A stretch of 22,421 nucleotides of DNA, taken from a virus (Duplodnaviria; Heunggongvirae; Uroviricota; Caudoviricetes). The position numbers were made by a program, and so were the translations under genes. Position 1 is the stretch's first letter. Every line of letters starts with the position of its first letter. The DNA is taken from positions 1 to 22,421 of IMG/VR virus record IMGVR_UViG_3300022758_000225. One strand, written 5' to 3'. Shown here in pieces: positions 1 through 15,835 of the stretch. The notes beneath the pieces were generated by a model. The model did no database searches. It saw nothing but the letters and a program-made list of their open reading frames with translations, and was not told the origin of the DNA.

Positions 1-73
1 TGATTATTTGCCACCCATGCCCCCCAACGTTCAAGAACCATTTGAATATCACGCATCAACTGTCTCCACAAAA

Positions 74-1070: not shown

Positions 1071-1071
1071 C

Positions 1072-1881
1072 TCAATGAACGGTATCGAGCAGCTTTAACA
1101 GCTCAGGGAATCGGGATTCGAAGAAATGCGGCTGCGTCTCGCGCGGATTTGCGGGACTAGTGATGTTCTTGCCGAACATGCAGCCTTTCGCGGTCAGCGA
1201 CCAGAATTTTTTGATGTTGTTAATCGCGGTACGGCTGTATCGTTCGCGTTGTTCAACGATCCCCAGCTTCACCATCTGGTGATATGCCTGATTAGCCGTC
1301 AGGCGGATACCATACTGTTTCAGCAGTGCACTCAGTGACAGTGTCGGGCGACTTGAGCCATCGTGTGCATCAGCAGGAGCATCAATGGCATAGCGCGGTG
1401 CCAGATTCGGTAAGCCAACAGCCTCCTGGAGTTTCTGACAGGCACCAAGCACAGATGAGTTAGACAGGTTTAACTCCCGACGCATAAAGTCCAGCAGAAT
1501 CACACCAGCCTGCATCTTGTCAGCAGCCTGTCCGGATAATTTTTCCGGTGCGCTGGTTACCATGTCGAAAGTACGGATCACCTTCAGATGGAATGACGGG
1601 CTGATCCACATTGCATAGGCATACACCAGTTCCTTGCAGACATAAGTTCCCCGTTCATTTCCCCCATGAATCACACTCACCGGGTCAACACCCAAATTCT
1701 GGGTGTTGGTCAATTCATGAACAAGTTCAACAGTTTGTTGGCTGGAAAGAAACTTTCCTGGCTCCTTGGTTCTGGCATTTGCACCAGATGCTACTGCTGC
1801 GCGATGCAGATCGTTCAGGCTGTAACGCCCATAAGCATCACGACGAACTTCAATACCATCAATGACCATCAGATTATTCAT
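1072..1881 (-). CDS. KilA-N domain protein / phage antirepressor-like
   Basis: N-terminus MNNLMVIDGIEVRRDAYGRYSLNDLHRAA is KilA-N-like. ATG at 1881 is preceded by AGGAGA; the track ORF extends to 1914. Confidence 0.7.
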   Translation of the reverse strand: MNNLMVIDGIEVRRDAYGRYSLNDLHRAAVASGANARTKEPGKFLSSQQTVELVHELTNTQNLGVDPVSVIHGGNERGTYVCKELVYAYAMWISPSFHLKVIRTFDMVTSAPEKLSGQAADKMQAGVILLDFMRRELNLSNSSVLGACQKLQEAVGLPNLAPRYAIDAPADAHDGSSRPTLSLSALLKQYGIRLTANQAYHQMVKLGIVEQRERYSRTAINNIKKFWSLTAKGCMFGKNITSPANPRETQPHFFESRFPELLKLLDTVH

Positions 1882-1900
1882 ACTTCGTTTCTCCTCTTGA

Positions 1901-2290
1901 TCAGGCGGCTGCACCCGCCGTTTTCTCGTACTTACTGATGGTGATCTCGACCTTCCCTTTCGGGATAACCGGTCCCCACTCCACCAGCATTCTTTTCACC
2001 TGTCTGTCGTCTTCCCACACACCCGCGTGGGTCAACGCGTCAAACAGCGCCTTGTTATAGTTGTCCAGATCGCGGATCCGGTTATCCGGAGGAAACAACA
2101 CGATCTCCACTGAAGCAGGTGCCGACGTTGGTTTTGGCAGACGACGTAACTGCTCAACTATTGCTGCGCACGCCGCGCTCTGAAATTTTCGCCCCGCCGC
2201 GCTTATCAGGCTCTTACCAGCAAATGCCCCTTTGTTGGGGTGTCGCCAGTACGTGTTCACGCTGGGCGGGAAAGGCAGGATCAGCTTCAT
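1901..2290 (-). CDS. rusA: Holliday-junction resolvase RusA
   Basis: 129 aa with PPSVNTYWRH, DLDNYNKALFDAL and GVWEDDRQV motifs matching E. coli RusA. Start overlaps the upstream stop as ATGA. Confidence 0.85.
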   Translation of the reverse strand: MKLILPFPPSVNTYWRHPNKGAFAGKSLISAAGRKFQSAACAAIVEQLRRLPKPTSAPASVEIVLFPPDNRIRDLDNYNKALFDALTHAGVWEDDRQVKRMLVEWGPVIPKGKVEITISKYEKTAGAAA

Positions 2291-2613
2291 ACTTTCAGGC
2301 CTCTCTCATGTAACCAGTGGGTTGCACGCAGCCTGGCGTTTTCCTCACCGGCAAGCAGTGAGCGGATAATCCCGACCGCCTCGCTGTCGTCGTCCTTCAC
2401 CGCGGTATGAAGAGTGATACCCCGGGCCACGCCACGCTTTATCGTGATGACGCCTTTTTTCTCCAGTGCGCGAAGATGTTCCACCGCTGCATTCACTGAA
2501 CGGTATCCCAGCATGGTTGCCACCTCCTGATTGGTTGGCGGGAAGCCACGTTCTTTCTGGTAAGAAATCAGCATATCCAGCACCTGCTGCTGGCATTGAG
2601 TTAACGTCGTCAT
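2287..2613 (-). CDS. LexA N-terminal DNA-binding-domain protein lacking the S24 peptidase domain
   Basis: 108 aa; QQQVLDML...GFPPTNQEVATMLGYRSVNAAVEHLRALEKKGVI aligns by eye with the LexA winged-HTH domain. No Ala-Gly cleavage site or Ser/Lys dyad. ATGA overlaps at both ends. Confidence 0.7.
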   Translation of the reverse strand: MTTLTQCQQQVLDMLISYQKERGFPPTNQEVATMLGYRSVNAAVEHLRALEKKGVITIKRGVARGITLHTAVKDDDSEAVGIIRSLLAGEENARLRATHWLHERGLKV

Positions 2614-3263
2614 GCCGCCATCTCCCTGACCAGTTTTTCCGCCTGCTGGCGAACCTGCGCCAGAAACGCCTCACCACATGCCTCAAGTTCATCGCGCCCG
2701 ATGTAGCTGATTGCCGGTCCCTTCCAGGTCTTGTCGAAAACAGCAATAGCACCAGCGAAGAAAGCGCCTGTCGGCACCTGCTTCTCGTCCTTCGGTATAA
2801 ACCAGGCAGGCAGTTCAAAACCAATACGCCCGCGAATAAAAGCAATATGATCTGCATCTTCCGGCCACCACACTTCGCTGGTGGCCGCTTTGATCAGGAA
2901 AACATAGCGCCCGCCCTTATCACGCATGGCACTGGCATGTTTCATGATGTAACGCATGCCGGTGATGTATTGCCCCTCATGCTGACTGGCGCGGCTGTAT
3001 GGGGGATTACCAAAGGCAGCACCTTTAAGCTCCGCAAGACGTTCTGACCAGTCATGCGCCAGCGCGTTATCTTCCGCCGTGTAATACGCGGCACATTTGG
3101 CGTTATCACCGTCAGTAAACAGATCCAGAACAAACGGGCCAAACAGAGTGTTAATTCCCCAGAAAATGTTGTCCGGCGTGCGCCACTGATCGCCCACTTC
3201 CTTCAGTTCATGGGCTGGTTTGTTCCGCAGTTCCACCAGTGCCTGACAATATTTATTACTCAT
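2610..3263 (-). CDS. phage N6-adenine DNA methyltransferase (Dam-like orphan methylase)
   Basis: Contains the NPPY motif (FGNPPYS) and a DLFTDGDN region typical of phage N6-adenine methyltransferases. Preferred start is ATG at 3263, overlapping the upstream stop as TAATG; the track gives a GTG at 3296. Confidence 0.8.
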   Translation of the reverse strand: MSNKYCQALVELRNKPAHELKEVGDQWRTPDNIFWGINTLFGPFVLDLFTDGDNAKCAAYYTAEDNALAHDWSERLAELKGAAFGNPPYSRASQHEGQYITGMRYIMKHASAMRDKGGRYVFLIKAATSEVWWPEDADHIAFIRGRIGFELPAWFIPKDEKQVPTGAFFAGAIAVFDKTWKGPAISYIGRDELEACGEAFLAQVRQQAEKLVREMAA

Positions 3264-3745
3264 TAAGCCCCCACGTAATTCCCTGACAGATACCACTCTT
3301 CACCCGATGCTGCGCGCTTGCTGCTTTTCTGTAAGCACTGCTCACGACGCGCCAGAAAATTGTTTCGTTCTGGCTGGGAGTGGCTTTCACGGAATGCCGC
3401 CATCCACACCGTTGCAGCACGACGGTATAAGCCCCTGGACTCCAGTTCTTCAGCCTGGCGAATCACCCGGGGATCGTTAGTGCCGACATAGAAATTGCGC
3501 ACAGGTCTGGTTTCACGAACTGGTTGTGGTTCCGGCTCCTGCGCTCTCTCAGTCAGGCGCGGGAAATGTCTGCGTGTATCTCCTTCACAACGGTGAGCCA
3601 CACGCCCACTCTGACGTAACTTGCTTGCTGACTGCAGAACGCGCTGTCGTGAGTAACCTGCAAAAGCATCCGCAATGTCTCCGAAAGTACACCCCGGATG
3701 GGCTTCAATGAATTTCTGAACTTCATTCAAAAGACTCATGATCAC
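3263..3745 (-). CDS. putative DNA-binding regulator with PerC-like C-terminal region
   Basis: 160-aa ORF in an operon of overlapping genes. The segment RVIRQAEELESRGLYRRAATVWMAAF resembles PerC-family proteins, from recall only. Confidence 0.4.
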   Translation of the reverse strand: MIMSLLNEVQKFIEAHPGCTFGDIADAFAGYSRQRVLQSASKLRQSGRVAHRCEGDTRRHFPRLTERAQEPEPQPVRETRPVRNFYVGTNDPRVIRQAEELESRGLYRRAATVWMAAFRESHSQPERNNFLARREQCLQKSSKRAASGEEWYLSGNYVGA

Positions 3746-4332
3746 CCCCTGAATCCTACCGGGATCTGGCTGTAGTCCACGTTGTCGTAACTGGCTTTGA
3801 AGTACGGGTCTTCACGTTTTTCTGTGTGCGTGCTGACGGACGGCGATAAGCGCAGGGAAAGCTCATCCCATTTTTCCCTCAACTTCGACGGGCTGAGCAC
3901 GTTACGGTACCAGAACGGATCGCGGCTGACGCGGCTGTACATCTCGCAGATTTGTTTGTGAGTACGACCATCCTGCACACACATCAGGCGAATTTCGTTT
4001 GCCCATGCTGTCCAGTTCGGTTCTTTGGGACGAACCACCTCGCCGTCACATTCGGCGGCCTGCTCGTACAGGGCGATGATTTTTTTCCAGAGCCACTGTG
4101 CGCAGGTCAAATCATCCTGCGTTCCCCACTGGCGCTTTTTAGGGCTGAATACAACCGCATCAGGATGGCGAGTTAAAAACTCCTGTTCAGCCGTTTGCGT
4201 GTCCGGTTGCGAAGCGTCCGGACGAGAAGAGGTTTTATTCTCTGTAGTAATCTCTGTTGTATTCTCTGTAAGATCATTGGGCCATTTTGACCCGATGACA
4301 GCGTGTCGTTTTGAACCAATGGATCGTGTCAT
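3742..4332 (-). CDS. replication protein, C-terminal part (O-like linker plus C-terminal domain)
   Basis: 196 aa. N-terminus is low-complexity (TENTTEITTENKTSS) and is encoded by the iteron region. ATG overlaps the stop of the replisome-organizer ORF as ATGA. Function inferred from position and iteron linkage. Confidence 0.5.
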   Translation of the reverse strand: MTRSIGSKRHAVIGSKWPNDLTENTTEITTENKTSSRPDASQPDTQTAEQEFLTRHPDAVVFSPKKRQWGTQDDLTCAQWLWKKIIALYEQAAECDGEVVRPKEPNWTAWANEIRLMCVQDGRTHKQICEMYSRVSRDPFWYRNVLSPSKLREKWDELSLRLSPSVSTHTEKREDPYFKASYDNVDYSQIPVGFRG

Positions 4333-4408
4333 TTGCGCCCATCCATCAGGTCACTTTGACCCGATGGAGAAGTGCATTTTGACCTGATGGATTCGTTCAC
4401 TTTGACCT
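4285..4408. repeat. origin-of-replication iterons (about 5 direct copies of TTTGAC(C/A)YGATGG plus one inverted copy)
   Basis: Direct copies at 4285-4298, 4309-4322, 4355-4367, 4377-4390 and a partial copy at 4400-4408. An inverted copy (ccatcaggtca) lies at 4343-4353. Spacing is 22-24 bp. They sit inside the replication gene, as ori-lambda does inside O. Confidence 0.6.
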
Positions 4409-4733
4409 CTTCTAAAAGCTCACTTTCATAGTTGATCGTGTAGAAGTTGGTCATGTCACGCTTCGATTTATTGAGTTGCTCGCGACGCAAAACCCCAAGT
4501 GATTTCAGGCTTGCAAATGTGCGTTTCAGAGTGGACTCTGACCAGAACGGAAACTGCTCCAGCCACTGTTCTGTCGTGTTATAAACCCAGCGAATTCCGC
4601 CATGCTCAGTGCCTGAATTCGTTTCATTCAGCCAGTAATGAAGCTGCTGCAACACAATTGCCTCATTCAGACCAATACGGCATGCAAGATCACGATTTAT
4701 CACAATGGGCTGGGATGTCATTAACAGGCTCAT
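4329..4733 (-). CDS. phage replisome organizer, N-terminal iteron-binding domain (lambda O-like)
   Basis: 134 aa; the N-terminus [39 protein letters not shown] resembles replisome-organizer N-terminal domains. Its 3' end is encoded by the iterons. Confidence 0.6.
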   Translation of the reverse strand: MSLLMTSQPIVINRDLACRIGLNEAIVLQQLHYWLNETNSGTEHGGIRWVYNTTEQWLEQFPFWSESTLKRTFASLKSLGVLRREQLNKSKRDMTNFYTINYESELLEEVKVNESIRSKCTSPSGQSDLMDGRK

Positions 4734-4902
4734 GACCGACCTCTATTTCCCTGAATTTACGACGAAACTGTTCGAGCGGACTGAAGCATTCATGTTCATA
4801 GCCTTCACGGAGGTAGATAACCCGTTGTGTTTCCGGCTCCCAACGAATGACTCTGACGGGCACTCCGTAGTGATCTTTGAACCAGCGGTTAACTTGTCGC
4901 AA
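4690..4902 (-). CDS. small phage protein (DUF4222-like)
   Basis: 70-aa ORF with TTG start at 4902 preceded by a strong SD (AAGGAGA at 4906-4913 on the minus strand). Motif [12 protein letters not shown]. Its 3' end overlaps the replication gene start by 44 nt. Confidence 0.45.
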
Positions 4903-5081
4903 AGGACTGTCTCCTTCTGCCGGTTGAAATCACCCACAGCCCACTCTGCAAAGCTGTGGGTTACAATTTCCCTGTCACCTGGTACATTCACTGCATAGCA
5001 ATACTCCACCTTCGCTTTTCCACCCGGTACAGGAAGCGCAATCAGTTGCGAGCGACGGTAGTGTGTTGTTAAACTGTTCAT
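4743..5081 (-). CDS. hypothetical protein (gene model uncertain)
   Basis: ATG at 5081 with GGAG about 10 nt upstream. The 3' two-thirds overlaps the DUF4222-like gene in another frame and looks low-complexity, so the true product is probably shorter. Confidence 0.2.
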
Positions 5082-5147
5082 GCGTTAGTTTCTCCACAAC
5101 CAGAAGCAATCGACGCCACGACGCCCGGAGCTGCACACTCGCGGGCG

Positions 5148-5636
5148 TCACTCTTTTCTGGAGCGCAAAAGATTTTGTAGACCAGTGCTGCATGCTCCTG
5201 GAGCTTCGCAAATTGACAGATACAACTCATCATTAATTGCTGTCTGCTCGTGTGGCTCCACTACCCCATCTTCGATTGCCGAACGAATCTGCTTTGAGTA
5301 ACTCCCGATCTGTTCGATGACTTCCAGCAGGCGCTGGTTTATATCGGCGTTCTCTACTTCCTCAATTTCAGGAAGCGATACAAACACCCCACCAGCAGAC
5401 TGTGCGACAGCATCCGCAATGTAGTGAGTGCCAGCCGCGCGCTGTAAAATCATTGCCCATCCCAGCGGGAAAATCTGATCGCCATCTGCACGAAGGCGGT
5501 TGAATAAAGCGTTCTCTGTTACATCCAGCCACTCAGCAGCTTCAGCGTAACCCCCCGGCAACGCCGCGATAGTTTTTCTGACAGCTTTCACGTACCACTC
5601 AGGCTGTTTTTCCACTTTCCAGTGATGATTACCCAC
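5148..5636 (-). CDS. CII-like regulatory protein (CP76 / YdaT-like family)
   Basis: 162 aa with GTG start preceded by AGGAGG. Lies immediately downstream of the cro-like gene, opposite the repressor. Family assignment is from recall only. Confidence 0.5.
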   Translation of the reverse strand: MGNHHWKVEKQPEWYVKAVRKTIAALPGGYAEAAEWLDVTENALFNRLRADGDQIFPLGWAMILQRAAGTHYIADAVAQSAGGVFVSLPEIEEVENADINQRLLEVIEQIGSYSKQIRSAIEDGVVEPHEQTAINDELYLSICEAPGACSTGLQNLLRSRKE

Positions 5637-5732
5637 GGCTTACCTCCTGTTCCTGTGGTTTAAAACCCATTCTGGTTTTGGCTAGATTGAAAACGTGCCG
5701 GATAAAGAATCTGCATTTCGCTGATTTCACCC

Positions 5733-5921
5733 TTAAAAAAATTGGCCAGACGTTCTGCAAGATCGATAGATGGAATTTGTTCCAGTCTTTTCAATACGAC
5801 TCAGCGTCGCTGGATTGACCTGAACGCCAGCAGCAACATGCTGCAAAGTAAATCCGTGCGCCTTACGCACATTTCCGTAATGGTGATTGCATATTACCTC
5901 CACATATTGCGTGATGAGCAT
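5733..5921 (-). CDS. Cro-like HTH (XRE-family) regulator
   Basis: HTH signature LQHVAAGVQVNPATLSRIEKTG. Divergent from the repressor gene. Internal ATG at 5921 chosen because the track's TTG at 6017 would overlap the cI start; no obvious SD, so possibly leaderless. Confidence 0.45.
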   Translation of the reverse strand: MLITQYVEVICNHHYGNVRKAHGFTLQHVAAGVQVNPATLSRIEKTGTNSIYRSCRTSGQFF

Positions 5922-5970
5922 ATTATTTTCACGCAAATATTTTGCGCAAGTTGATTTGCTTAACGCGCAA
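5907..5970. promoter_or_regulatory. OR-like operator cluster and divergent promoters between the cro-like and cI-like genes
   Basis: Three 15-bp palindromic sites centred about 24 bp apart: TTGCgtgatgaGCAt (5907-5921), cGCAAatattTTGCg (5932-5946), TTGCttaacgcGCAA (5956-5970). TTGATT at 5951-5956 and TAATAA at 5982-5987 are candidate promoter hexamers. Confidence 0.5.
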
Positions 5971-5990
5971 TAAAGAAATGTAATAAACGC

Positions 5991-6684
5991 ATGAACATAG
6001 GAAACCGAGTCAGACAACTTCGCCAGGCGAAGAACATGAAAATCGCCGATCTCGCTGAAGCAATAGGAGTGGATGCGGCGAATATCTCACGCCTGGAAAC
6101 AGGTAAGCAGAAACAATTCACTGAACAAGCCCTGAGTAATATTGCCAGGAGCTTAGGTGTTGATATTGCTGATCTCTTTACCTCAGACGTCAAAAGTAAT
6201 ACTGTATGTAAAAACAGTATTAGTGAGGATGTTGCGCAGGTGAAGGATGTATTCCGTATTGAAATGCTGGATGTCAGTGCCAGTGCGGGAAATGGCCTTA
6301 TCCAGGGCGGTGATGTCATTGATGTGATTCATGCCATTGAATACAGAACTGATAATGCTGTATCGATGTTTTGGCGGACGGCCAGCCAATCACATTAAAG
6401 TTATCAACGTTCGTGGGGACAGTATGTGTCCAACCATTGAGCCAGGAGATCTCATCTTCGTTGATGTCAGTATCAATCAGTTTGATGGAGATGGTATCTA
6501 TGTATTTGGTTTTGATGATAAAATTTATGTCAAGCGACTGCAAATGATACCTGACAAACTACTGGTGATTTCTGATAACCAGATTTACCGTGAATGGGGA
6601 ATTACCAGCGAAAATGAACACCGGTTTATGGTCTTTGGAAAGGTCTTAATCAGCCAGTCACAAACCCTTAAGCGACACAATTAA
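5991..6684 (+). pseudogene. cI-like prophage repressor (XRE HTH plus S24 LexA-like peptidase domain) interrupted by a frameshift
   Basis: ORF 5991..6398 carries the HTH (IADLAEAIGVDAANISRLETGKQ) and an Ala-Gly site (SASAGNG). ORF 6331..6684 in the +1 frame carries the S24 motifs GDSMCPTIEPGD and KRL. Removing one T from the T4 run at 6369-6372 joins them as ...NAVSMFGGRPANHIKV.... Confidence 0.7.
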
Positions 6685-6704
6685 CCCTTACCTCCTCATC
6701 AATT

Positions 6705-6726
6705 AGCCACCCAAAGGTGGCTTTTC
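6705..6726 (+). terminator. intrinsic terminator downstream of the cI-like gene
   Basis: Stem agccacc / ggtggct with loop caaa, followed by TTTT, about 20 nt after the cI stop at 6682-6684. Confidence 0.5.
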
Positions 6727-6739
6727 ATTACCCTTTAAA

Positions 6740-6792
6740 TTGCATATCTCGCAACAAAAACACTTGCATAATGCGCAACTTCATTTTATCTT
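6740..6792 (+). promoter_or_regulatory. OL-like operators with candidate PL promoter
   Basis: Two TTGC-N7-GCAA sites (6740-6754 and 6764-6778), 24 bp centre to centre, the same motif as the OR sites. TTGCAT at 6764-6769, a 17-bp spacer and TATCTT at 6787-6792 form a candidate rightward promoter. Confidence 0.4.
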
Positions 6793-7222
6793 TCTTTCCA
6801 GACAAACAAACAAGGTACTAACAAAATTTGGTTGTAACACGGCGTATGGCACATGCGTCGTTAGCGGTCTGGGGACGTTAAAGGGGACAATCCACTCCTT
6901 GCTCGGGCAAACAAACCAGGTAGCCGGAATGTGCAAGTCAATGATGATGCTGATAAGACGCCTAACCAGCGTGGCGGTTCGGTTTGACACCTGGGAAGAG
7001 ACCAGGGTGCAACGATGAGGGCATTTATGGAACCGCGACAAAGTGTGGTGCCGTAACTGGCTAAGTGCTCTCAGCGTTGTGGTGAATGCGCAGGCTGATG
7101 CGCGAAAGACATTGCAGCTATTGCGGAAAAGAGCTGTTCGGCGGGGCAATTAAACGCCCGTGAGAGTCTGAAATAACCGCAAGCCGGAGATCAGCACCGG
7201 TCACCACAACAGCCACTGCTTT

Positions 7223-7270
7223 AGCGGTACCAGTTTGTACACTTGCTTCCGGCTGGTACCGCTCTTTTTT
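7223..7270 (+). terminator. intrinsic terminator in the early-left leader (tL-like)
   Basis: Perfect 11-bp stem agcggtaccag (7223-7233) / ctggtaccgct (7253-7263) with a 19-nt loop, followed by T6 at 7265-7270. Confidence 0.5.
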
Positions 7271-7407
7271 ACAAAACAGAGAAGAGCATCACCGGACGAC
7301 GGGCTCATAACCCAATCCATCCGGGCGGCTGCCACCGCAGGTGTTCTTCTCTGTTTTGTGGAGAAACCAACCGACCTTGCAGGGTCGATATGATGAGGAG
7401 CAGCAAA

Positions 7408-7770
7408 ATGGCTAGCGTACGCAGTACTGATGTGCAGGCATTTATCGGGGAGCTGGACGGCGGCGTATTTGAAACCAAAATCGGCGCTGTTCTCAGTGAA
7501 GTCGCTTCCGGTGTGATGAACACGAAAAACAAAGGTAAGGTCTCGCTCAACCTGGAAATCGAACCATTTGATGAGAACCGTGTGAAAATCAAACACAAAC
7601 TCTCATATGTTCGCCCGACTAACCGCGGGAAAATTTCCGAAGAAGACACCACCGAAACGCCGATGTATGTCAATCGCGGTGGTCGCCTGACTATTCTGCA
7701 GGAAGACCAGGGACAATTACTGACTCTTGCCGGTGAACCTGACGGAAAACTCCGCGCAGCAGGTCATTAA
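7408..7770 (+). CDS. hypothetical early-left protein (first gene after the leader; yfdP-like by position and size)
   Basis: ATG at 7408 preceded by GAGGAG at 7395-7400; 120 aa. No similarity to lambda N. Track ORF 7243..7770 is an upstream extension without an RBS. Confidence 0.5.
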   Translation: MASVRSTDVQAFIGELDGGVFETKIGAVLSEVASGVMNTKNKGKVSLNLEIEPFDENRVKIKHKLSYVRPTNRGKISEEDTTETPMYVNRGGRLTILQEDQGQLLTLAGEPDGKLRAAGH

Positions 7771-7835
7771 TATCGTTCTTAATTAACTGATTATTTATCT
7801 CATCACTGAATATCTTAATATAGTGAGGACTTATT

Positions 7836-8659
7836 ATGTCTCAGAACTTAGACGCAACCGCAATTAATCAAATCCATGCCCTTATTTCTGCTCAGGGTGT
7901 TAATGAAATTATCAGTAAGATTGGTGCCGATGCTGTGGCATTGCCTGAGAATTTCCGCATTCATGATCTGGAAAAATTTAATTTAAATCGCTTCCGTTTC
8001 CGTGGTGCGCTTTCCACTGCCAGCATCGATGACTTTACCCGTTATTCTAAAGATCTTGCAGATGAAGGCACCCGCTGCTTTATCGATGCCGATAATATGC
8101 GAGCCATCAGTGTGCTTAACCTGGGTACTATTGATGAACCAGGTCACGCAGATAACACCGCCACTCTCAACTGAAAAAGACAGCACCGTTCTCTGCCCTG
8201 CTGTCTGTTAATGGCGAGCGTAACTCCCAGAAGTCACTGGCAGAATGGATTGAAGACTGGGCCGACTATCTTGTGGGCTTTGATGCTAATGGTGACGCTA
8301 TTAAGGCAACAAAAGCGGCTGCGGCAGTCCGTAAAATCACGATTGAAGCAAACCAGACCGCTGATTTTGAAGATAATGACTTCAGCGGCAAACGCTCTTT
8401 GATGGAGTCTGTCGAAGCGAAAACCAAAGACATTATGCCAGTAGCATTTGAGTTTAAATGCGTTCCGTTTGAAGGCCTGAAAGAACGTCCGTTTAAATTA
8501 CGCCTCAGCATTATCACTGGTGATCGTCCTGTACTGGTTCTGCGCATTATTCAGCTGGAAGCGGTGCAGGAAGAAATGGCTAACGAATTTCGTGATCTGC
8601 TTGTTGAGAAATTCAAAGACAGCAAAGTAGAAACCTTTATTGGTACTTTCACCGCCTGA
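7836..8659 (+). pseudogene. DUF2303-like (yfdQ-like) gene split by a frameshift
   Basis: N-part 7836..8174 (frame 0) stops at 8172-8174. The C-part frame is open from 8156 and continues to 8659 (track ORF begins at GTG 8273). The two frames overlap in 8156-8172; joined length is about 274 aa. Confidence 0.5.
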
Positions 8660-8786
8660 TTTCATTACTGCAAATGCCCCTGCGGGGGCATTTATGGAAA
8701 CGTAATTGACTCAATAATCGCCAGATGGTGAGGGCTTCCTTTTACCAGAATTCAGCGCGGTGCAGCGCATATACGTGGAGAACAAA

Positions 8787-9323
8787 ATGTCATTTATTAA
8801 AACTTTTTCCGGGAAGCATTTTTATTATGACAGGATAAATAAAGACGACATCGTTATTAACGATATCGCGGTTTCTCTTTCAAATATCTGTCGCTTTGCA
8901 GGACATCTTTCACATTTCTACAGCGTCGCCCAACATGCGGTGCTTTGCAGCCAACTGGTACCGCAGGAATTTGCTTTTGAAGCGTTAATGCATGATGCAA
9001 CAGAAGCGTATTGCCAGGACATCCCGGCGCCACTGAAACGCCTTCTTCCTGACTATAAACGGATGGAAGAAAAAATAGACGCCGTAATCCGTGAGAAATA
9101 CGGGTTACCACCAGTTATGAGTACACCCGTGAAATATGCCGATCTCATCATGCTGGCAACCGAACGTCGCGATCTCGGGCTTGATGATGGCTCTTTCTGG
9201 CCTGTACTGGAAGGCATCCCGGCAACAGAGATGTTCAACGTGATTCCACTGGCTCCGAGCCATGCCTACGGGATGTTTATGGAACGTTTTAACGAGTTAT
9301 CGGAGTTACGCAAATGCGCATGA
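8787..9323 (+). CDS. HD-domain phosphohydrolase (yfdR-like)
   Basis: His-Asp motif in EALMHDATEAYCQDIP plus HLSHFYSVAQH. ATG at 8787 preceded by GGAG gives 178 aa; the track ORF starts at 8760. Confidence 0.65.
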   Translation: MSFIKTFSGKHFYYDRINKDDIVINDIAVSLSNICRFAGHLSHFYSVAQHAVLCSQLVPQEFAFEALMHDATEAYCQDIPAPLKRLLPDYKRMEEKIDAVIREKYGLPPVMSTPVKYADLIMLATERRDLGLDDGSFWPVLEGIPATEMFNVIPLAPSHAYGMFMERFNELSELRKCA

Positions 9324-9730
9324 ATGTTTTCGAAATGGAAGGGTTTCTTCGCGGGAAATGTGTACCACGAGATCTGAAAGTGAATGAAACAAATGCTGAG
9401 TATCTGGTGCGTAAATTTGCTGAAGCGGAGGCCAAGTGCGCGGCGCTGGCGGCGGAGAATGAGCTGGCTCGTAAAGCTGTTCAGGCATTCTGTGAGGTTG
9501 TTGGCGACAACACTGAGATTATCTCCGTGTTGGTTGGGCGAGATGGCGTTCTGGTTATTTTGGAGGCCATGAAGGCAACAGGAAATATGTCAGCCACCGA
9601 CGCTTTCCTGGCTGAAGTACGTGCGCAGGGTGTTGAATTGTTGCGCGAGCATCCTGCTATCCAGATTTGCTCTTTAACGCACGTATGCGACGAGTTCGCC
9701 GCCCAGCTTCGTAAAGGAGGCAACCAGTGA
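9314..9730 (+). CDS. hypothetical protein
   Basis: 138-aa ORF. ATG at 9314 preceded by GGAG; overlaps the HD gene stop by 10 nt. Confidence 0.45.
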   Translation: MRMNVFEMEGFLRGKCVPRDLKVNETNAEYLVRKFAEAEAKCAALAAENELARKAVQAFCEVVGDNTEIISVLVGRDGVLVILEAMKATGNMSATDAFLAEVRAQGVELLREHPAIQICSLTHVCDEFAAQLRKGGNQ

Positions 9731-10026
9731 CTGTATGTCTTATTGATAAACGTCGACGTGGGCAACAAATACCATCTGTTGAAATGCCGAATCACACATG
9801 GTTTTGCGTACTTGATATCGATGGTATGGATACGTTGATCGACACTCGTCATTACTGCGATACCGCAACAGCTACTCCGGCGAAAGCAAAGAAAATGGCT
9901 GCTCTGATAGAAAACTGGACTCCACCTGATGGTTGGTGCAATGGGAATGATCGGGATTGGCATGAAAAAATGAAGAGCTATATCTGCGATTTCTTACGTA
10001 AATGCAACGGATTCAGGGTGATGTGA
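9727..10026 (+). CDS. hypothetical Cys-rich small protein
   Basis: 99 aa. GTG start overlapping the upstream stop as GTGA, preceded by a strong AGGAGG at 9713-9718. Confidence 0.45.
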   Translation: MTVCLIDKRRRGQQIPSVEMPNHTWFCVLDIDGMDTLIDTRHYCDTATATPAKAKKMAALIENWTPPDGWCNGNDRDWHEKMKSYICDFLRKCNGFRVM

Positions 10027-10027
10027 C

Positions 10028-10564
10028 ATGAGCAATATTGACTATCAGGCACTGCGTGAGGCGGCAGAACGTGCAATTCCGGCAATGGAACGCCTGTTAA
10101 TGTTGCCAGCTGATGATGATTTGTTAAGTGAACAGGAACTTAAAGATTACGGTGTGGATATTGATGCGCTCAACGCCTTCAAATTTCTGAACGGACCAGA
10201 AACCGTGCTGGCACTGCTGGATGAACGGGAAAGAAACCAGCAATACATCAAACGCCGTGACCAGGAGAACGAGGATATTGCGCTTACGGTTGGGAAGCTG
10301 CTCGTTGAGCTTGAAGCAGCAAAATCAAAACTCAACGAGCAGCGCGAGTATTACGAGGGAGTTATCTCTGATGGGTGCAAGCGTATTGCTGAACTGGAAG
10401 CGCGGGAAGTTCAATTACCGACTCGCTACGACCTTCGATATGGACACCCGATAAATGCAGATGAGCGACATGTCATGATACCTAAAGAAAATGGCAGTTG
10501 GCTTTACCTGATTGACCTGGAACACGCATTACGCGTCGCTGACATTCGCATCAAAGGAGAGTGA
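10028..10564 (+). CDS. Ead/Ea22-like early protein
   Basis: 178 aa. N-terminus MSNIDYQALREAAERA and a coiled-coil-like middle section resemble Ea22-like proteins of lambdoid early-left regions, from recall only. Confidence 0.45.
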   Translation: MSNIDYQALREAAERAIPAMERLLMLPADDDLLSEQELKDYGVDIDALNAFKFLNGPETVLALLDERERNQQYIKRRDQENEDIALTVGKLLVELEAAKSKLNEQREYYEGVISDGCKRIAELEAREVQLPTRYDLRYGHPINADERHVMIPKENGSWLYLIDLEHALRVADIRIKGE

Positions 10565-10565
10565 T

Positions 10566-10829
10566 ATGGCAACTTTGACAAAAAAAGAACAAGCATGGTT
10601 GAGCGAATTACAGGACGTTCTTGATCGCTGCCCATCACCGAAAAAAATTGGTTTTTACACCATTGGCGATAAAAGCATTTACCTGTATGACCTGCGCCGC
10701 ATGGATGAAATCATGGAGGCTCTTGATAATCGTTCGTCAATGGATTGGTGTGTTGCTGTTCATGATATGAATGCCGGATTTGATGAAAAGATTTTATTCC
10801 CCTCATCAGTTGAAAGTACAGCAGGATAA
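10566..10829 (+). CDS. hypothetical protein
   Basis: ATG at 10566 two nt after the upstream stop, preceded by AAAGGAGAG; 87 aa. The track ORF extends upstream to 10512. Confidence 0.45.
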   Translation: MATLTKKEQAWLSELQDVLDRCPSPKKIGFYTIGDKSIYLYDLRRMDEIMEALDNRSSMDWCVAVHDMNAGFDEKILFPSSVESTAG

Positions 10830-10839
10830 GGACTAACAC

Positions 10840-11412
10840 ATGACCACTATTACCAAAGAGCGACTGCTGACAATCAGGCAGTGGCGCGAAACATACGGAC
10901 CTGGTAGCAACGTTGTACTGCCAGCAGAAGAAGCGGAAGAACTGGCACGAATTGCTCTGGCATCGCTGGAAGCAGAACCTGTAAGCCAAACTTACAACTT
11001 GCCACAAACGCACTTTGAACAGGTTGCTGACCTTTACGAAATGCAATTTGATGACGGACGCACTTGTGCCTTTCATACTGATGCGCAAAAGGCTGCGCAA
11101 TGGCTTCGGGCATGCGACGGAAACAGGGTTCAGGAATACGTGAAACTGGAGCGACTGCAGAACGCGCTATCGGGCAACTCTCCGGTAATTCCGGATAGTT
11201 GGATAAGCTGTAGTGAGCGAATGCCGGAAAAGAATCAGAACGTGCTTATTTCGGTGAATTTCGATAGCTCTCTGGTTGAACCGCTAATATGCTCCGCACG
11301 CTATACCGGAAGCACCTTTCGGCGCGGAGATGCAACGATTAAGCCGGGTAATGGTATTGAGCAGGCAACCCACTGGATGAAATTACCGGAACCACCGCAG
11401 GAGGTGAAGTGA
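10840..11412 (+). CDS. DUF551-domain protein
   Basis: C-terminal WISCSERMP...THWMKLPEPP matches the DUF551 signature common in lambdoid prophages. Confidence 0.6.
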   Translation: MTTITKERLLTIRQWRETYGPGSNVVLPAEEAEELARIALASLEAEPVSQTYNLPQTHFEQVADLYEMQFDDGRTCAFHTDAQKAAQWLRACDGNRVQEYVKLERLQNALSGNSPVIPDSWISCSERMPEKNQNVLISVNFDSSLVEPLICSARYTGSTFRRGDATIKPGNGIEQATHWMKLPEPPQEVK

Positions 11413-11984
11413 TGAACAACTTAATGATCGACCTTGAGACGATGGGGAAAAATAAGGATGCACCGATCGTTTCCATTGGCGCGGTGTTCTTCACTCCAGA
11501 AACCGGAGACATCGGACAAGAATTCTATACGGTTGTTAGCCTGGAAAGTGCTATGGGGCAAGGAGCTACACCTGACGGCGATACCATCCTGTGGTGGTTG
11601 AAACAAAGCCCTGAAGCACGAGCTGCAATCTGTATTGATGATACTTTGTCGATCAGCGATGCTCTCTCAGAACTAAATCATTTCATTAACCGGCACGCAG
11701 CCAATACGAAATATTTAAAAGTCTGGGGTAACGGGGCCACCTTCGACAACGTAATTTTACGTGGAGCTTATGAGCGAGCAGGACAAATCTGCCCGTGGGC
11801 ATACTGGAATGACCACGATGTACGCACGATCGTTACGCTTGGGCGTTCCATCGGATTCGACCCCAAAATGGACATGCCTTTCGATGGCGAACGGCACAAC
11901 GCCCTGGCTGATGCTCGTCATCAGGCAAAATATGTTTCCGCTATCTGGCAGAAATTAATTCCTGCCACCAGCACAGAATTATGA
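11412..11984 (+). CDS. DnaQ-like 3'-5' exonuclease (DEDDh family)
   Basis: MIDLETMG (Exo I motif) and ERHNALADARHQ (Exo III H-x4-D motif). AGGAGG at 11399-11404. Confidence 0.65.
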   Translation: MNNLMIDLETMGKNKDAPIVSIGAVFFTPETGDIGQEFYTVVSLESAMGQGATPDGDTILWWLKQSPEARAAICIDDTLSISDALSELNHFINRHAANTKYLKVWGNGATFDNVILRGAYERAGQICPWAYWNDHDVRTIVTLGRSIGFDPKMDMPFDGERHNALADARHQAKYVSAIWQKLIPATSTEL

Positions 11985-12020
11985 TTTTCCCGGGTGCAGC
12001 CGGTTTTGATGGAGAAAATT

Positions 12021-12302
12021 ATGAACACCTTGTTTTTACTGATGGCTGAATTCAATACCCCTAACATTGAACTCTCAGCAGTTAGCCAAAAGTACTTTGG
12101 CATGAGTCCAGCCACGGCAGAAGCAAAAGCAAACGCTTGTAAGTTGCCCGTTCCAACATATCGCATCGGCACATCACAAAAAGCAAAACGTTGCATCAAT
12201 ATTCAGGATCTTGCGGAATACATAGACAAAAGACGAGAAGAAGGACGTATCGAGTGGGAACAGGTCAGAACAGGCAAACAGAAGGGCAAAGAACATCACT
12301 AA
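12021..12302 (+). CDS. PrtN-family DNA-binding protein (pyocin-activator / excisionase-like)
   Basis: MNTLFLLMAEFN...IQDLAEYIDKRR closely resembles the N-terminus of P. aeruginosa PrtN. ATG at 12021 preceded by GGAG. Confidence 0.6.
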   Translation: MNTLFLLMAEFNTPNIELSAVSQKYFGMSPATAEAKANACKLPVPTYRIGTSQKAKRCINIQDLAEYIDKRREEGRIEWEQVRTGKQKGKEHH

Positions 12303-12304
12303 AG

Positions 12305-12331
12305 AAAAAACCCGCCTAAAGGCGGGTTTTC
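12305..12331. terminator. bidirectional intrinsic terminator
   Basis: aaaaaaCCCGCCtaaaGGCGGGtttt: GC-rich stem flanked by an A-run and a T-run, between convergent genes ending at 12302 and 12350. Confidence 0.6.
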
Positions 12332-12349
12332 AAAAAGCACCAGCTATGA

Positions 12350-12523
12350 TCATGCTGCTTTGCGACGACGAAGCTTACCCTGCTGCTCTTTACCAGAGAC
12401 AGTAGCGTGAGTGAACGCATTAGGAGCAGCCTTCATCAGAACTTCAACAGCAGCACCCATACCTGCGAATGCTTTCATTGTGTCGAACTTAACCTGTGGC
12501 TTGGTTGCTTTTTGATCTTTCAT
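12350..12523 (-). CDS. small lysine-rich hypothetical protein (57 aa; not in the supplied ORF track)
   Basis: Hand translation of the minus strand gives MKDQKATKPQVKFDTMKAFAGMGAAVEVLMKAAPNAFTHATVSGKEQQGKLRRRKAA. ATG at 12523 preceded by GGGAG at a 7-nt spacing. Confidence 0.4.
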   Translation of the reverse strand: MKDQKATKPQVKFDTMKAFAGMGAAVEVLMKAAPNAFTHATVSGKEQQGKLRRRKAA

Positions 12524-12719
12524 AGAAAACTCCCGAGACAGTAAAGGCGTCTCTAACCCTCTCTTTAAAGCTAGCTTGTTTAGCTAACTTATGCCAATCG
12601 ATCATGTCGATTGGTGACATCGTTTCTTAGTAGTTTAAGCACAAAACGACTGCCATAGATGTACCTTTAAGGTAATCTGGACGGGTATCCTACAATTTGT
12701 AGACCCTTCTCGTCTATAC

Positions 12720-13256
12720 CTACTGAGCAAATTTAAGAAAGATATCCTGCAGCTCATCAATGACTGCAGACATCACATAACCGCACTGTTCCATGCGGAA
12801 ACCAAAAGACTCGTAATACTGCACCAGTTCTGGTACTGGCTCTACAATGTGGACAACTTTACATTCAACAGCTTTACAAAATATAAAAGCACTCATAAGA
12901 GTGAGTAAAACCATGCGCCCTTTCAATGGGTGAGATTCATCTTCTCTAGAAAACCTTTCGATCATATGGATACGAAAGATGTTTTCTTCAACCCCATAAA
13001 CACAAATTGCTGCTCCTGATGGTATTCCCTGAACCCGACCTTGCTGAACAAGTTTTATGCAGAACTCATACTTTTCTCTGGAGTTGCCATAGGTGCTTAA
13101 CGCATAGTCCCATTCAAGCTCACCATAGCCACCACACAGAATCTTGTAATCATCATCACTGAGCGGACCAACAGCAAGAGGTAAGCCGACATGATCAATA
13201 ATCAACTGGATATTGTTACGTACAGATTGACCTATCTCGTCTAGGGTAAGCATCAT
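12720..13256 (-). CDS. GNAT-like acetyltransferase-fold protein (moron candidate)
   Basis: 178 aa. KGRMVLLTLMS and ELVQYYESFGF resemble GNAT motifs A and B. Opposite strand to its neighbours and visibly AT-rich. Fold call is tentative. Confidence 0.45.
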   Translation of the reverse strand: MMLTLDEIGQSVRNNIQLIIDHVGLPLAVGPLSDDDYKILCGGYGELEWDYALSTYGNSREKYEFCIKLVQQGRVQGIPSGAAICVYGVEENIFRIHMIERFSREDESHPLKGRMVLLTLMSAFIFCKAVECKVVHIVEPVPELVQYYESFGFRMEQCGYVMSAVIDELQDIFLKFAQ

Positions 13257-13536
13257 AGACTCTCAAGCGGAACACTAAAAATCTCATTATATCTCATTCT
13301 GATGCCCCGCATGGATTACACCTTGAAATGAAAACACCGGGTTCCCAATAGGCTCCCACAAAGTGTATAACTACTTGTTTTTCAAAAACGGTACATCCTA
13401 TCGAGCATAGGAGCAATGCTAAACCGAGAACTCCAGTAAGCGCCAGTTTTTTCAGGCATCACGCTGGTTTGATTAGTTTTCTGTATTTCAGGATTATCGT
13501 GCATTTTTGAACATTTCAGGCTATTTTTCTCGCGTT

Positions 13537-13572
13537 AGGTTCCCGCACAGGTTCCCACGTTTTATGGGAACC
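13537..13572. promoter_or_regulatory. repeated GGTTCCC motifs upstream of the integrase gene (candidate arm-type or regulator binding sites)
   Basis: AGGTTCCC at 13537-13544 and 13549-13556; inverted copy GGGAACC at 13566-13572, forming TTCCCA-N7-TGGGAA. Related GGTTCCCA and GGCTCCCA copies at 13340-13347 and 13351-13358. Confidence 0.35.
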
Positions 13573-13592
13573 CGAAATAACGAGGTCGTGTA

Positions 13593-14690
13593 ATGGCGTA
13601 CTATAACATAGAGAAACGACTAAAATCCGATGGCACACCACGCTATCGCTGTAATGTGATTATCAAAGAAAAAGGTGTTATCACTTACAGGGAAAGCAAA
13701 ACATTCCCTAAACATGCTCATGCCAAAACATGGGGCGCACAGAAAGTGATGGAATTAGATCTATATGGCATTCCATCATCAAATGCTGTTGATGGACTTA
13801 CAGTCCGTGACTTACTACACAAATATTTAAATGACCCAAATGCCGGAGGTAAAGCAGGCCGTACTAAAAGATATGTGCTGGAACTGCTTATGGATAGTGA
13901 CATATCCGCGATCAAACTATCTGAACTGACAGAAAATGACGTAATTGAACATTGCAGGCTAAGAAACAACGCTGGTGCAGGCCCAGCAACAGTCAGCCAC
14001 GATGTTAGTTATCTTGGCAGTGTTCTGGATGCGGCAAAACCTGTATACGGAATCAATTACACATCAAACCCGGCGAAAAGCGCTCGTCCATATCTACTTA
14101 AACTCGGTTTGATTGGTAAATCAAACCGTCGTAATCGTAGACCAGCATCTGATGAACTGGACATGCTCATTGAAGGCCTTCAACAACGATCTACTCATAA
14201 ATGCTCAAAAATTCCGTTCGTTGATATCCTCAAATTTTCTGTGTGGTCCTGTATGCGAATCGGAGAAGTATGCCGGTTACGATGGGAAGATCTCGACCAA
14301 GAACAAAAATCTATACTAGTAAGAGATAGGAAAGATCCACGTAAAAAGGAAGGTAACCATATGAAAGTTGCCTTGCTTGGGGAAGCCTGGGATATCGTCC
14401 AGCGCCAACCCAAAAAATCAGAATTCATTTTTCCATATAACAGCACTTCTGTTACCGCAGGATTTCAGAGGGTAAGAAGCAAATTAGGTATTAAAGATCT
14501 GCGATACCATGATTTGCGTAGAGAAGGGGCAAGTCGCTTATTTGAGGCTGGTTTTAGTATTGAGGAAGTCGCTCAAGTTACAGGGCATCGTTCATTAAAC
14601 GTGCTATGGCAGGTATATACCGAACTGTATCCGAAATCTTTACATAATCGTTTTGAAGAACTCCAAAAGAGCAGAAACAAGACCTCTTGA
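13593..14690 (+). CDS. int: tyrosine site-specific integrase
   Basis: 365 aa with C-terminal catalytic signature YHDLRREGASRLFEAGFSIEEVAQVTGHRSLNVLWQVYTEL (HxxR and Tyr nucleophile). RBS GAGG. Confidence 0.9.
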   Translation: MAYYNIEKRLKSDGTPRYRCNVIIKEKGVITYRESKTFPKHAHAKTWGAQKVMELDLYGIPSSNAVDGLTVRDLLHKYLNDPNAGGKAGRTKRYVLELLMDSDISAIKLSELTENDVIEHCRLRNNAGAGPATVSHDVSYLGSVLDAAKPVYGINYTSNPAKSARPYLLKLGLIGKSNRRNRRPASDELDMLIEGLQQRSTHKCSKIPFVDILKFSVWSCMRIGEVCRLRWEDLDQEQKSILVRDRKDPRKKEGNHMKVALLGEAWDIVQRQPKKSEFIFPYNSTSVTAGFQRVRSKLGIKDLRYHDLRREGASRLFEAGFSIEEVAQVTGHRSLNVLWQVYTELYPKSLHNRFEELQKSRNKTS

Positions 14691-14692
14691 CA

Positions 14693-14736
14693 CTGTTTAT
14701 TTATACAGATAAAAATAACACTGTATACAAACACAG
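14693..14736. promoter_or_regulatory. two tandem LexA (SOS) boxes upstream of the dinI-like gene
   Basis: CTGTttatttatACAG (14693-14708) and CTGTatacaaacACAG (14721-14736); both match CTGT-N8-ACAG exactly and lie 16-60 nt upstream of the ATG at 14752. Confidence 0.7.
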
Positions 14737-14751
14737 TATAGAGGGATTTTT

Positions 14752-15000
14752 ATGCGTATTGAAATCTGCATAGCCAAAGAGAAAATGACTAAAATGCCAA
14801 ACGGTGCTGTGGATGCGTTAAAGGAAGAATTAACTCGGCGCATCAGTAAGCGTTATGACGATGTAGAAGTGATCGTAAAAGCCACCAGCAATGATGGGCT
14901 TTCTGTTACACGCACAGCAGATAAGGATTCTGCAAAAACATTTGTTCAGGAGACTCTGAAAGATACCTGGGAGTCTGCTGACGAGTGGTTTGTTCACTAA
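14752..15000 (+). CDS. DinI-like DNA-damage-inducible protein
   Basis: 82 aa; [11 protein letters not shown]...[16 protein letters not shown] matches the E. coli DinI family along its length. RBS GAGGGA. Confidence 0.85.
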
Positions 15001-15068
15001 TAAACACGTAAAATCGGTAACGGCTGGAAATCATTCAATACCCGCACTATCGAAAGTTCACCAGCCAA

Positions 15069-15112
15069 CCGCAGCACGTCCTGCATACGTCGTGTCTGCG
15101 GTTTTTCTTTTT
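15069..15112 (+). terminator. intrinsic terminator downstream of int and dinI (tI/sib-like position)
   Basis: Stem ccgcagcacg / cgtgtctgcgg with one bulge, followed by TTTTTcTTTTT. Confidence 0.45.
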
Positions 15113-15253
15113 CGCTTACATTGTGTCTGGTTCTTCCGGCCACTCAATATCAGGTGCAGTTGATGTATCAACACGGTTCAGCAACACCCTGCATGCCTTC
15201 CATGCCGCCAGCAATGATGTTTCCTCCTTCGTTGCATATACTGCTCACCTTTT

Positions 15254-15547
15254 TCACCCACGATTAACCAACAGCCAGATCAGCAGACACGCCACCACCG
15301 GCACAGCAAAATCCATCAGACTTGCCATATCCCACACGCGCGGGTCAAAACCACCCCACCACGGCATATTCATACGCTTGCCATGCCCGAACATTTCAAT
15401 CCAGCGATATTCTGCCTGGGTGTGTTCCCGCGCAATGAAGAACGTACAACCGGCTATCGCCCCGTAAGCCCAGTTTCCGGTAAAAAGACCAGCCAGTACC
15501 TGCACCGCTACGGCACAAAGCGCATGAAGTATCGACGTGATATCCAT
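15254..15547 (-). CDS. small hydrophobic (membrane) protein, moron candidate
   Basis: 97 aa with hydrophobic N- and C-terminal segments (LHALCAVAVQVLAGLF and FAVPVVACLLIWLLV). Last gene of the tail operon direction. Confidence 0.45.
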   Translation of the reverse strand: MDITSILHALCAVAVQVLAGLFTGNWAYGAIAGCTFFIAREHTQAEYRWIEMFGHGKRMNMPWWGGFDPRVWDMASLMDFAVPVVACLLIWLLVNRG

Positions 15548-15556
15548 CTGCTATCC

Positions 15557-15835
15557 TTAAAACCACTCCCTGAGCGGGCGCTCTGGTGTAACCACCCACT
15601 CACGGAACACGGAATCATCAAATCCATCGTCAAGAAGACGGATATTAACAAAGTACCCTTCGTTTCGCGTGTATTCTGGTTCTCCGTCATCAGGAACATC
15701 TGTCTCCCTGAACGTAAAACCAATCTCATCAACCAGAACGGCATTCTGCAGCTCTTCGTCCTCTTCCCAGTTAAGTTTCCTGAGAAATGCCCTGAAATCT
15801 GCTTTATCACTGAAACGCAACGTGAAATCTCTCAC
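15557..15835 (-). CDS. hypothetical acidic protein downstream of the tail fibre gene
   Basis: 92 aa. Start overlaps the stf stop as ATGA. No resemblance to lambda Tfa. Confidence 0.45.
   Translation of the reverse strand: MRDFTLRFSDKADFRAFLRKLNWEEDEELQNAVLVDEIGFTFRETDVPDDGEPEYTRNEGYFVNIRLLDDGFDDSVFREWVVTPERPLREWF

What the first reader, a model, noticed from the sequence alone, without database searches (positions are those of the whole stretch)
8156..8174. DUF2303 (yfdQ-like) gene is split by a frameshift
The N-terminal ORF stops at 8172-8174, while the frame of the C-terminal ORF is already open from 8156. A single-base indel inside the 8156-8172 overlap would fuse them into a ~274-aa protein, the size I recall for YfdQ-type proteins. 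This is a further gene in the window with a 1-nt frame break.
Basis: partly seen in the sequence, partly recalled or inferred. Interest (0 to 1): 0.4.

Follow-up and report, generated by a model that had tools for sequence, protein, structure and literature searches.

The report
One-base sequencing error splits yfdQ
The prophage gene yfdQ really is cut in two in this sequence by one missing A, but the break looks like a homopolymer-length error in a metagenome contig, one of 14 such errors here, and not like biology.

Summary
ORF 7836-8174 (112 aa) and the frame open from 8156 to 8659 are the two halves of one DUF2303/YfdQ gene (Pfam profile positions 2-107 and 108-269). The break is a single missing A: the window has CTCAACTG at 8166-8173 where intact genes have CTCAAACTG. 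Restoring that A gives the 274-aa protein WP_001673539.1 exactly.

It is most likely not a biological feature. Over window 1-13400 the only differences from E. coli PMV-1 are 10 one-base indels, with no substitutions. Four more such indels lie in gpJ. Twelve of the 14 change the length of a run of 3 or more bases. They break seven genes, including the cI-like and cro-like regulators and tail protein J, while 23 other compared proteins are 100% identical.

The deletion allele was found in none of the 2501 complete E. coli genomes that carry the gene, nor in any other collection searched. Its 112-aa product is on record from one contig only, a 22,421-bp JGI/IMG contig that is this window.

No usable slippery site lies in the overlap, and no conserved split homologues exist.

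Verdict: sequencing or assembly artefact (about 0.88); genuine private frameshift about 0.10; recoding about 0.01. Low interest.

The parts
7836..8174 (+). N-terminal fragment of yfdQ (112 aa, ends TGA 8172-8174). Residues 1-111 equal residues 1-111 of the intact 274-aa protein; residue 112 is N instead of K.
8156..8659 (+). C-terminal reading frame of yfdQ, shifted by -1 relative to the N-terminal frame. It is open from 8156, just after TAA 8153-8155. From 8171 (CTG) onward it encodes residues 113-274 of the intact protein.
8169..8170 (+). Site of the lesion: AA where every compared intact gene has AAA (codon Lys112). This is a one-base deletion in a 3-base homopolymer.
7836..8659 (+). The whole yfdQ gene as it would read with the missing A restored (825 nt, 274 aa). 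It lies in the conserved order yfdP (7408-7770), yfdQ, yfdR (8787-9323) in the early-left operon of a lambdoid phage that integrates at dusA.

Best explanation
The split is a consensus error in homopolymer length (AAA read as AA) in a metagenome-assembled contig of a lambdoid E. coli phage related to mEp460. The real phage almost certainly carries an intact 274-aa yfdQ. Shown: the exact lesion, its uniqueness, and the contig-wide pattern of indels without substitutions. Inferred: that this pattern comes from the sequencing chemistry or assembly (454, Ion Torrent or unpolished long reads at low coverage) and not from mutation.
For: (1) Window 1-13400 differs from E. coli PMV-1 only by 10 single-base indels and no substitutions. 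Three further genomes give the same or nearly the same score.
(2) In 13401-22421, outside a recombinant patch at 17372-18913, there are 4 more single-base indels and 2 substitutions.
(3) Twelve of the 14 indels change a run that is 3 or more bases long in the reference, although such runs cover only 16.8% of the window (binomial P = 3e-8).
(4) Twelve of the 14 fall in coding sequence. They break seven genes: DUF968, a 330-aa hypothetical, ymfL, the cro-like HTH gene (3 insertions), the cI-like XRE repressor, yfdQ and gpJ. Twenty-three other compared proteins are 100% identical, and Stf and Lom differ only by substitutions in the recombinant patch. So frameshifts show no sign of being selected against, and there is no other sign of decay.
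(5) The deletion allele is absent elsewhere. Among the 2501 complete E. coli genomes with the gene, the best match is 101/102 with one gap. There are 0 hits in viral contigs and 0 in metagenome contigs. All 4 hits among species-representative genomes carry AAA.
(6) The 112-aa product is on record from exactly one contig, JGI/IMG, 22,421 bp, which is this window. The intact protein is on 783 contigs.
(7) The contig crosses an attP junction, so it is the excised or virion form of the phage. That sits poorly with a phage whose repressor, cro and tail-tip J genes are all dead.
(8) Homopolymer indels are a documented main source of false frameshifts in 454-type E. coli assemblies and fall as coverage rises (PMC3045373). 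[quoted passage not shown]
Against: No reads are available, so the error cannot be shown directly. Most affected runs are short (2-3 bases), whereas in well-covered 454 data about 90% of such errors fall in runs of 5 or more. The platform is therefore unknown, and low coverage or long-read chemistry has to be assumed. Real slipped-strand mutations also prefer homopolymers. Even on a contig full of errors, any single indel could be real.
Confidence: 0.88

Rival explanations
1. A genuine, very recent one-base deletion by replication slippage has inactivated yfdQ in this phage lineage, making a young pseudogene or truncated product.
For: The lesion sits in a short homopolymer, where slippage occurs. 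yfdQ is dispensable in E. coli K-12 under standard growth conditions (deleting yfdQRST gave no phenotype; PMC4776307). Sporadic frameshifted yfdQ fragments do occur in public assemblies.
Against: It would have to be one of 14 indels that arose with essentially no substitutions, while also destroying cI, cro, J and other genes in a phage found in attP form. By my own recollection, not checked here, natural E. coli divergence and mutation-accumulation spectra are dominated by substitutions. If indels made up as much as 20% of differences, 10 of 10 being indels has P = 1e-7. No other genome or contig shares the allele.
Confidence: 0.1
2. Programmed recoding: a -1 ribosomal frameshift or transcriptional slippage joins the two frames, so that both a 112-aa and a 274-aa product are made.
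For: The two frames overlap by 17 nt, and an A5 run follows (8174-8178).
Against: There is no in-phase X_XXY_YYZ heptamer inside the 8156-8174 overlap. The only one in the ORF (TTTAAAT, 7982) lies 170 nt upstream of the point where the -1 frame opens. The A5 run begins with the A of the TGA stop, so slippage there cannot bypass the stop, and 5 bases is below the 8 or more usually needed (PMC3711429). The split is not conserved: near-identical genes are uninterrupted in about 2500 genomes.
Confidence: 0.01
3. The two ORFs are genuinely separate genes, a natural split of DUF2303 into proteins of about 112 and about 160 aa.
For: Databases hold many short DUF2303 entries, including several of exactly 112 aa.
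Against: Those entries have scattered lengths (63-188 aa). Most are on a single contig, or are labelled 'partial' by the source. The four other 112-aa entries I read (P0053, P0066, P0073, P0085) shift frame at four different upstream positions and all end ...PLSN at the same out-of-frame TGA. None ends ...TATLN as here. The Pfam model (269 positions), PHROG 210 (274 positions) and the PDB chain (274 aa) are all single full-length units. In frame, the C-terminal piece has no ATG, GTG or TTG start before GTG 8273, 34 codons into the conserved region.
Confidence: 0.01

Closest known systems
YfdQ family protein WP_001673539.1 (274 aa; E. coli PMV-1, CEA601S and many others); the family of CPS-53 prophage YfdQ of E. 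coli K-12; Pfam PF10065 DUF2303; PHROG 210
   Same: The DNA is identical across the 901-nt region 7800-8700 except for the one missing A (99.9%). The gene neighbourhood is the same: yfdP, yfdQ, yfdR. The Pfam match is full-length once the two halves are joined.
   Different: As written in the window the gene is in two frames. Family function is still poorly defined. In K-12, yfdQ is needed together with yfdR and yfdS or yfdT for multicopy inhibition of replication initiation, but its own role is unknown (PMC4776307).
Homopolymer-length errors in pyrosequencing, semiconductor or unpolished long-read assemblies, which create false frameshifts
   Same: Single-base insertions and deletions in mononucleotide runs, no accompanying substitutions, indifference to coding sequence, and many genes broken on one contig (PMC3045373).
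   Different: The platform and coverage of this contig are unknown. The affected runs are shorter than is typical of well-covered 454 data.
dnaX-type programmed -1 ribosomal frameshifting
   Same: Only the superficial geometry: two overlapping frames and the sequence A AAA AG nearby.
   Different: No slippery heptamer in phase before the stop, and the split is not conserved in homologues.

Membership tests
DUF2303 / YfdQ family (PF10065) | Match to the Pfam model above its gathering score (26.6 bits) | tested here: met
   124 and 167.4 bits for the two halves, on profile positions 2-107 and 108-269
DUF2303 / YfdQ family (PF10065) | A single polypeptide of about 270 aa covering the whole model | tested here: not met
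   Not met as the window is written (112 aa plus a second frame). Met exactly (274 aa, identical to WP_001673539.1) once one A is restored.
DUF2303 / YfdQ family (PF10065) | Prophage early-operon context yfdP, yfdQ, yfdR | tested here: met
   yfdP 7408-7770 and yfdR 8787-9323 flank the gene and are 100% identical to the PMV-1 proteins
Programmed -1 ribosomal frameshift site | An in-phase slippery heptamer X_XXY_YYZ inside the frame overlap | tested here: not met
   None in 8156-8174. The only heptamer, at 7982, lies upstream of a closed -1 frame.
Programmed -1 ribosomal frameshift site | Frame break conserved among homologues | tested here: not met
   None of the 2501 E. coli genomes with the gene has the break. 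All 4 species-representative hits are intact.
Genuine frameshift pseudogene | Lesion supported by the underlying reads or by an independent sequence | not testable with these tools
   No reads are available. No second sequence carries the allele.
Genuine frameshift pseudogene | Mutational spectrum of the surrounding DNA compatible with natural divergence (substitutions outnumbering indels) | tested here: not met
   10 indels and 0 substitutions in 13.4 kb; 14 indels and 2 substitutions outside the mosaic patch
Homopolymer sequencing or assembly error | Single-base length changes concentrated in mononucleotide runs, spread over the contig regardless of coding | tested here: met
   12 of 14 in runs of 3 or more (P = 3e-8); 12 of 14 in coding sequence; seven genes broken

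The most novel reading that the evidence does not exclude
The indels are real. This excised phage population would then have passed through an indel-specific mutational process (for example an intercalating frameshift mutagen, or a slippage-prone polymerase acting without mismatch repair) that riddled it with +1/-1 homopolymer changes and no substitutions. It would be a dead phage genome that still excises to the attP form.
Probability: 0.03. Interest if true: 0.3.

Novelty: not a real feature. Interest (0 to 1): 0.05.

Why it matters
The value is mainly quality control. This contig should not be used to call pseudogenes, truncated proteins or recoding events, because at least seven of its genes are broken by probable homopolymer errors. 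Any other one-base frame break reported from this window should be read the same way. Nothing here changes what is known about YfdQ.

Tried and rejected
- Exact-pattern scans for the deletion allele found nothing in viral contigs or metagenome contigs. A scan of species-representative genomes that tolerated either allele found only intact copies.
- An exact look-up of where the 112-aa product is encoded found nothing on record. The protein collection does list it, once, on a 22,421-bp JGI/IMG contig. I could not recover the sample or the sequencing platform.
- I considered programmed -1 frameshifting and transcriptional slippage and rejected both on sequence and on lack of conservation.
- I considered a natural two-gene split and rejected it after reading four other 112-aa database entries, which are unrelated frameshifts ending at a shared out-of-frame stop.
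- The homologue search with the N-terminal fragment returned only short entries and no full-length proteins. It is useful for the split-gene test but gives no length distribution for the family; for that I relied.
- A search for a paper on PDB entry 9o7m (YfdQ) found none.

Full report
**1. The observation**

The + strand ORF 7836..8174 encodes 112 aa and stops at TGA 8172-8174. The frame shifted by -1 has a TAA at 8153-8155 and is then open from 8156 to the stop at 8657-8659.

Both pieces match Pfam PF10065 (DUF2303), and they abut on the profile. The N-terminal piece covers positions 2-107 of 269 (124 bits, E 8e-36). The C-terminal piece covers positions 108-269 (167 bits, E 5e-49).

**2. 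The exact lesion**

The 901-nt region 7800-8700 matches 2505 records from complete E. coli genomes at 80% coverage or more. The best matches are 99.9% identical and span 902 nt, one base more than the query. All listed hits are annotated 'YfdQ family protein'.

Alignment with E. coli PMV-1 and CEA601S shows a single difference. The window reads CTC-AACTG where both genomes read CTCAAACTG. One A is missing from the AAA that encodes Lys112, at window 8169-8170.

The intact gene is 825 nt and 274 aa (WP_001673539.1). The window's two frames reproduce that protein apart from the junction residue. The neighbours are the conserved yfdP (7408-7770) and yfdR (8787-9323), both 100% identical to the PMV-1 proteins.

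**3. The context that decides what it is**

- **First half.** I aligned window 1-13417 with the PMV-1 prophage. Up to the prophage end at about 13400 there are no substitutions and ten single-base indels:
  - +G at 469 and -T at 4331;
  - +C at 5209 and +A at 5662;
  - +T at 5788, 5872, 5926, 6369 and 7265;
  - -A at 8169-8170, the yfdQ lesion.

  Three more genomes (N56, 2022E04-002, ST95-32) give the same or nearly the same score as PMV-1.
- **Second half.** I compared 13401-22421 with E. coli N56. Of the 91 substitutions, 89 lie in a mosaic patch at 17372-18913. Outside that patch there are two substitutions and four more single-base changes, all in T or C runs of gpJ: two at about 19413, +C at 19865 and -T at 20042.
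- **Run lengths.** Twelve of the 14 events change a run that is 3 or more bases long in the reference. Such runs cover 16.8% of the window (binomial P = 3e-8).
- **Genes hit.** Twelve of the 14 lie in coding sequence. A tblastn of the reference proteins shows seven genes switching frame: DUF968, a 330-aa hypothetical, ymfL, the cro-like HTH gene (three insertions), the cI-like XRE repressor, yfdQ and gpJ. Twenty-three other compared proteins are 100% identical. Stf and Lom differ only by substitutions in the mosaic patch.

**4. Uniqueness of the allele**

- A 101-nt query centred on the deletion finds the gene in 2501 complete E. coli genomes. The best match anywhere is 101/102 with one gap, so none of them has the AA allele.
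- Exact-pattern scans find no copies in viral contigs or metagenome contigs.
- All four hits among species-representative genomes have the 33-nt AAA form.
- In the 15-billion-protein collection, the 112-aa product is held from one contig only. Its source is JGI/IMG and its length is 22,421 bp, which is exactly this window. The intact 274-aa protein is on 783 contigs, and its 90% cluster has 10,812 members.

The window is therefore a complete metagenome contig, and the truncated protein has never been seen elsewhere.

**5. The contig is in phage form**

Left of about 13403 the window follows the attR side of the PMV-1 prophage. Right of it the window follows the attL side of the N56 prophage, next to dusA. 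The two sides share a short common core (positions). In phage records such as mEp460 the same stretch is colinear.

The contig therefore represents excised or virion DNA of a lambdoid phage that integrates at dusA. A phage recovered in that form is unlikely to have lost its repressor, cro and tail-tip J genes to frameshifts while showing no point mutations at all. This last step is inference.

**6. Interpretation**

An indel-only difference spectrum, biased to homopolymers and blind to coding sequence, marks run-length miscalling in the consensus.

- In 454 sequencing of E. coli, one-base gaps and insertions in homopolymers were a major class of false polymorphisms and fell as coverage rose (PMC3045373).
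- If indels made up as much as 20% of true differences, ten indels out of ten differences has P = 1e-7.

I put the artefact explanation at 0.88.

Two caveats remain. I have no reads. And the affected runs are mostly short, which is less typical of well-covered 454 data. That suggests low coverage or a long-read platform, neither of which I can verify.

Seven of the 14 events fall in the 2.2-kb immunity region 5209-7265 (P = 1.6e-4). Homopolymer density there is no higher than in most of the contig. A possible reason is lower read depth, because this region is specific to this phage among co-occurring lambdoid relatives. I could not test that.

**7. Rivals**

- **Genuine recent frameshift (0.10).** This is possible for any single site. 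yfdQ is dispensable in K-12 under standard conditions. But the explanation has to cover the 13 other events and the absence of substitutions.
- **Programmed recoding (0.01).** The overlap has no in-phase slippery heptamer. The only one in the ORF (TTTAAAT at 7982) is 170 nt upstream of where the -1 frame opens. The A5 run at 8174-8178 starts with the last base of the stop codon, so slippage there cannot bypass the stop. The break is not conserved.
- **Natural split gene (0.01).**
  - Short DUF2303 entries range from 63 to 188 aa. Most are on a single contig, or are labelled 'partial' by the source.
  - The four other 112-aa entries I read (P0053, P0066, P0073, P0085) shift frame at four different upstream points. 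All end ...PLSN at the TGA that lies out of frame in the intact sequence AAACTGA. None shares this window's ...TATLN end.
  - The Pfam model, PHROG 210 and the PDB chain are all full-length units of 269-274 positions.

**8. What the gene is**

YfdQ belongs to DUF2303, and PHROG 210 lists its function as unknown.

- In E. coli K-12 CPS-53, multicopy yfdQ with yfdR and yfdS or yfdT inhibits initiation at oriC and suppresses hda-185. YfdR binds DnaA.
- YfdQ's own role is unresolved, and deleting yfdQRST gave no phenotype under normal growth (PMC4776307).
- A solved structure of a 274-aa 'YfdQ protein' exists (PDB 9o7m, 36 chains; E 1.6e-44 to the intact protein). I found no paper for it.

None of this bears on the frame break.

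**9. Verdict**

The feature is most likely an assembly artefact, so novelty is 'not a real feature' and interest is low (0.05). The practical consequence is that every one-base frame break on this contig should be treated as suspect until reads are checked.

Noticed in passing
window 466-469, 4329-4331, 5209, 5659-5662, 5785-5788, 5870-5872, 5923-5926, 6366-6369, 7260-7265, ~19408-19417, 19860-19865, 20039-20042: There are 13 further single-base indels relative to the nearest genomes (PMV-1 and N56), nearly all in mononucleotide runs. They break DUF968, a 330-aa hypothetical, ymfL, the cro-like HTH gene (3 insertions), the cI-like repressor and gpJ. Two are intergenic.
   Followed up: yes
window 5209-7265: Seven of the 14 indels cluster in the 2.2-kb immunity region (P = 1.6e-4), and five of them are +T on the + strand. 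Homopolymer density there is no higher than in most of the contig. Locally low coverage is a guess and was not tested.
   Followed up: partly
window ~13401-13417 (junction) and 13401-13504: The contig crosses an attP junction. To the left is the attR side of the PMV-1 prophage; to the right is the attL side of the N56 prophage, overlapping about 100 bp of the annotated end of dusA. The contig is therefore phage-form DNA of a lambdoid phage that integrates at dusA. At 13403 the window has G where both attL and attR have A.
   Followed up: partly
window 17372-18913: A mosaic patch holds 89 of the 91 substitutions and a 3-nt indel relative to N56. It covers the start of the side tail fibre gene, lom and the end of gpJ. 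This looks like ordinary recombinational exchange of host-range genes, in contrast to the substitution-free remainder.
   Followed up: partly
window 19865-20042 (- strand, gpJ): A -1 change at 20042 and a +1 change at 19865 compensate for each other. About 59 codons of gpJ are left out of frame without meeting a stop, so the 984-aa ORF looks intact although its sequence is corrupted.
   Followed up: partly
proteins P0053, P0066, P0073, P0085 (public DUF2303 fragments): Four unrelated frameshifted yfdQ fragments are each exactly 112 aa, because any shift into that frame ends at the TGA hidden in AAACTGA. A shared length of 112 aa is therefore not evidence of a conserved short gene.
   Followed up: yes
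PDB 9o7m (homologue of the gene at 7836-8659): A solved structure named 'YfdQ Protein' exists, 274 aa with 36 chains in one entry, which suggests a large homo-oligomer. No paper for it was found in the library.
   Followed up: partly
L001 2405-3579 (E. coli PMV-1 prophage, outside the window): The PMV-1 copy of this prophage carries a scabin-related ADP-ribosyltransferase gene and a subtilase-family AB5 toxin binding-subunit gene between Q and the lysis genes. The window ends inside Q, so whether this phage carries them is unknown.
   Followed up: no
PHROG phrog_18285 against YfdQ residues 190-274: A separate 85-position PHROG family matches only the C-terminal 85 residues of YfdQ (E 1e-53). 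It was probably built from truncated or split annotations in phage genomes.
   Followed up: no
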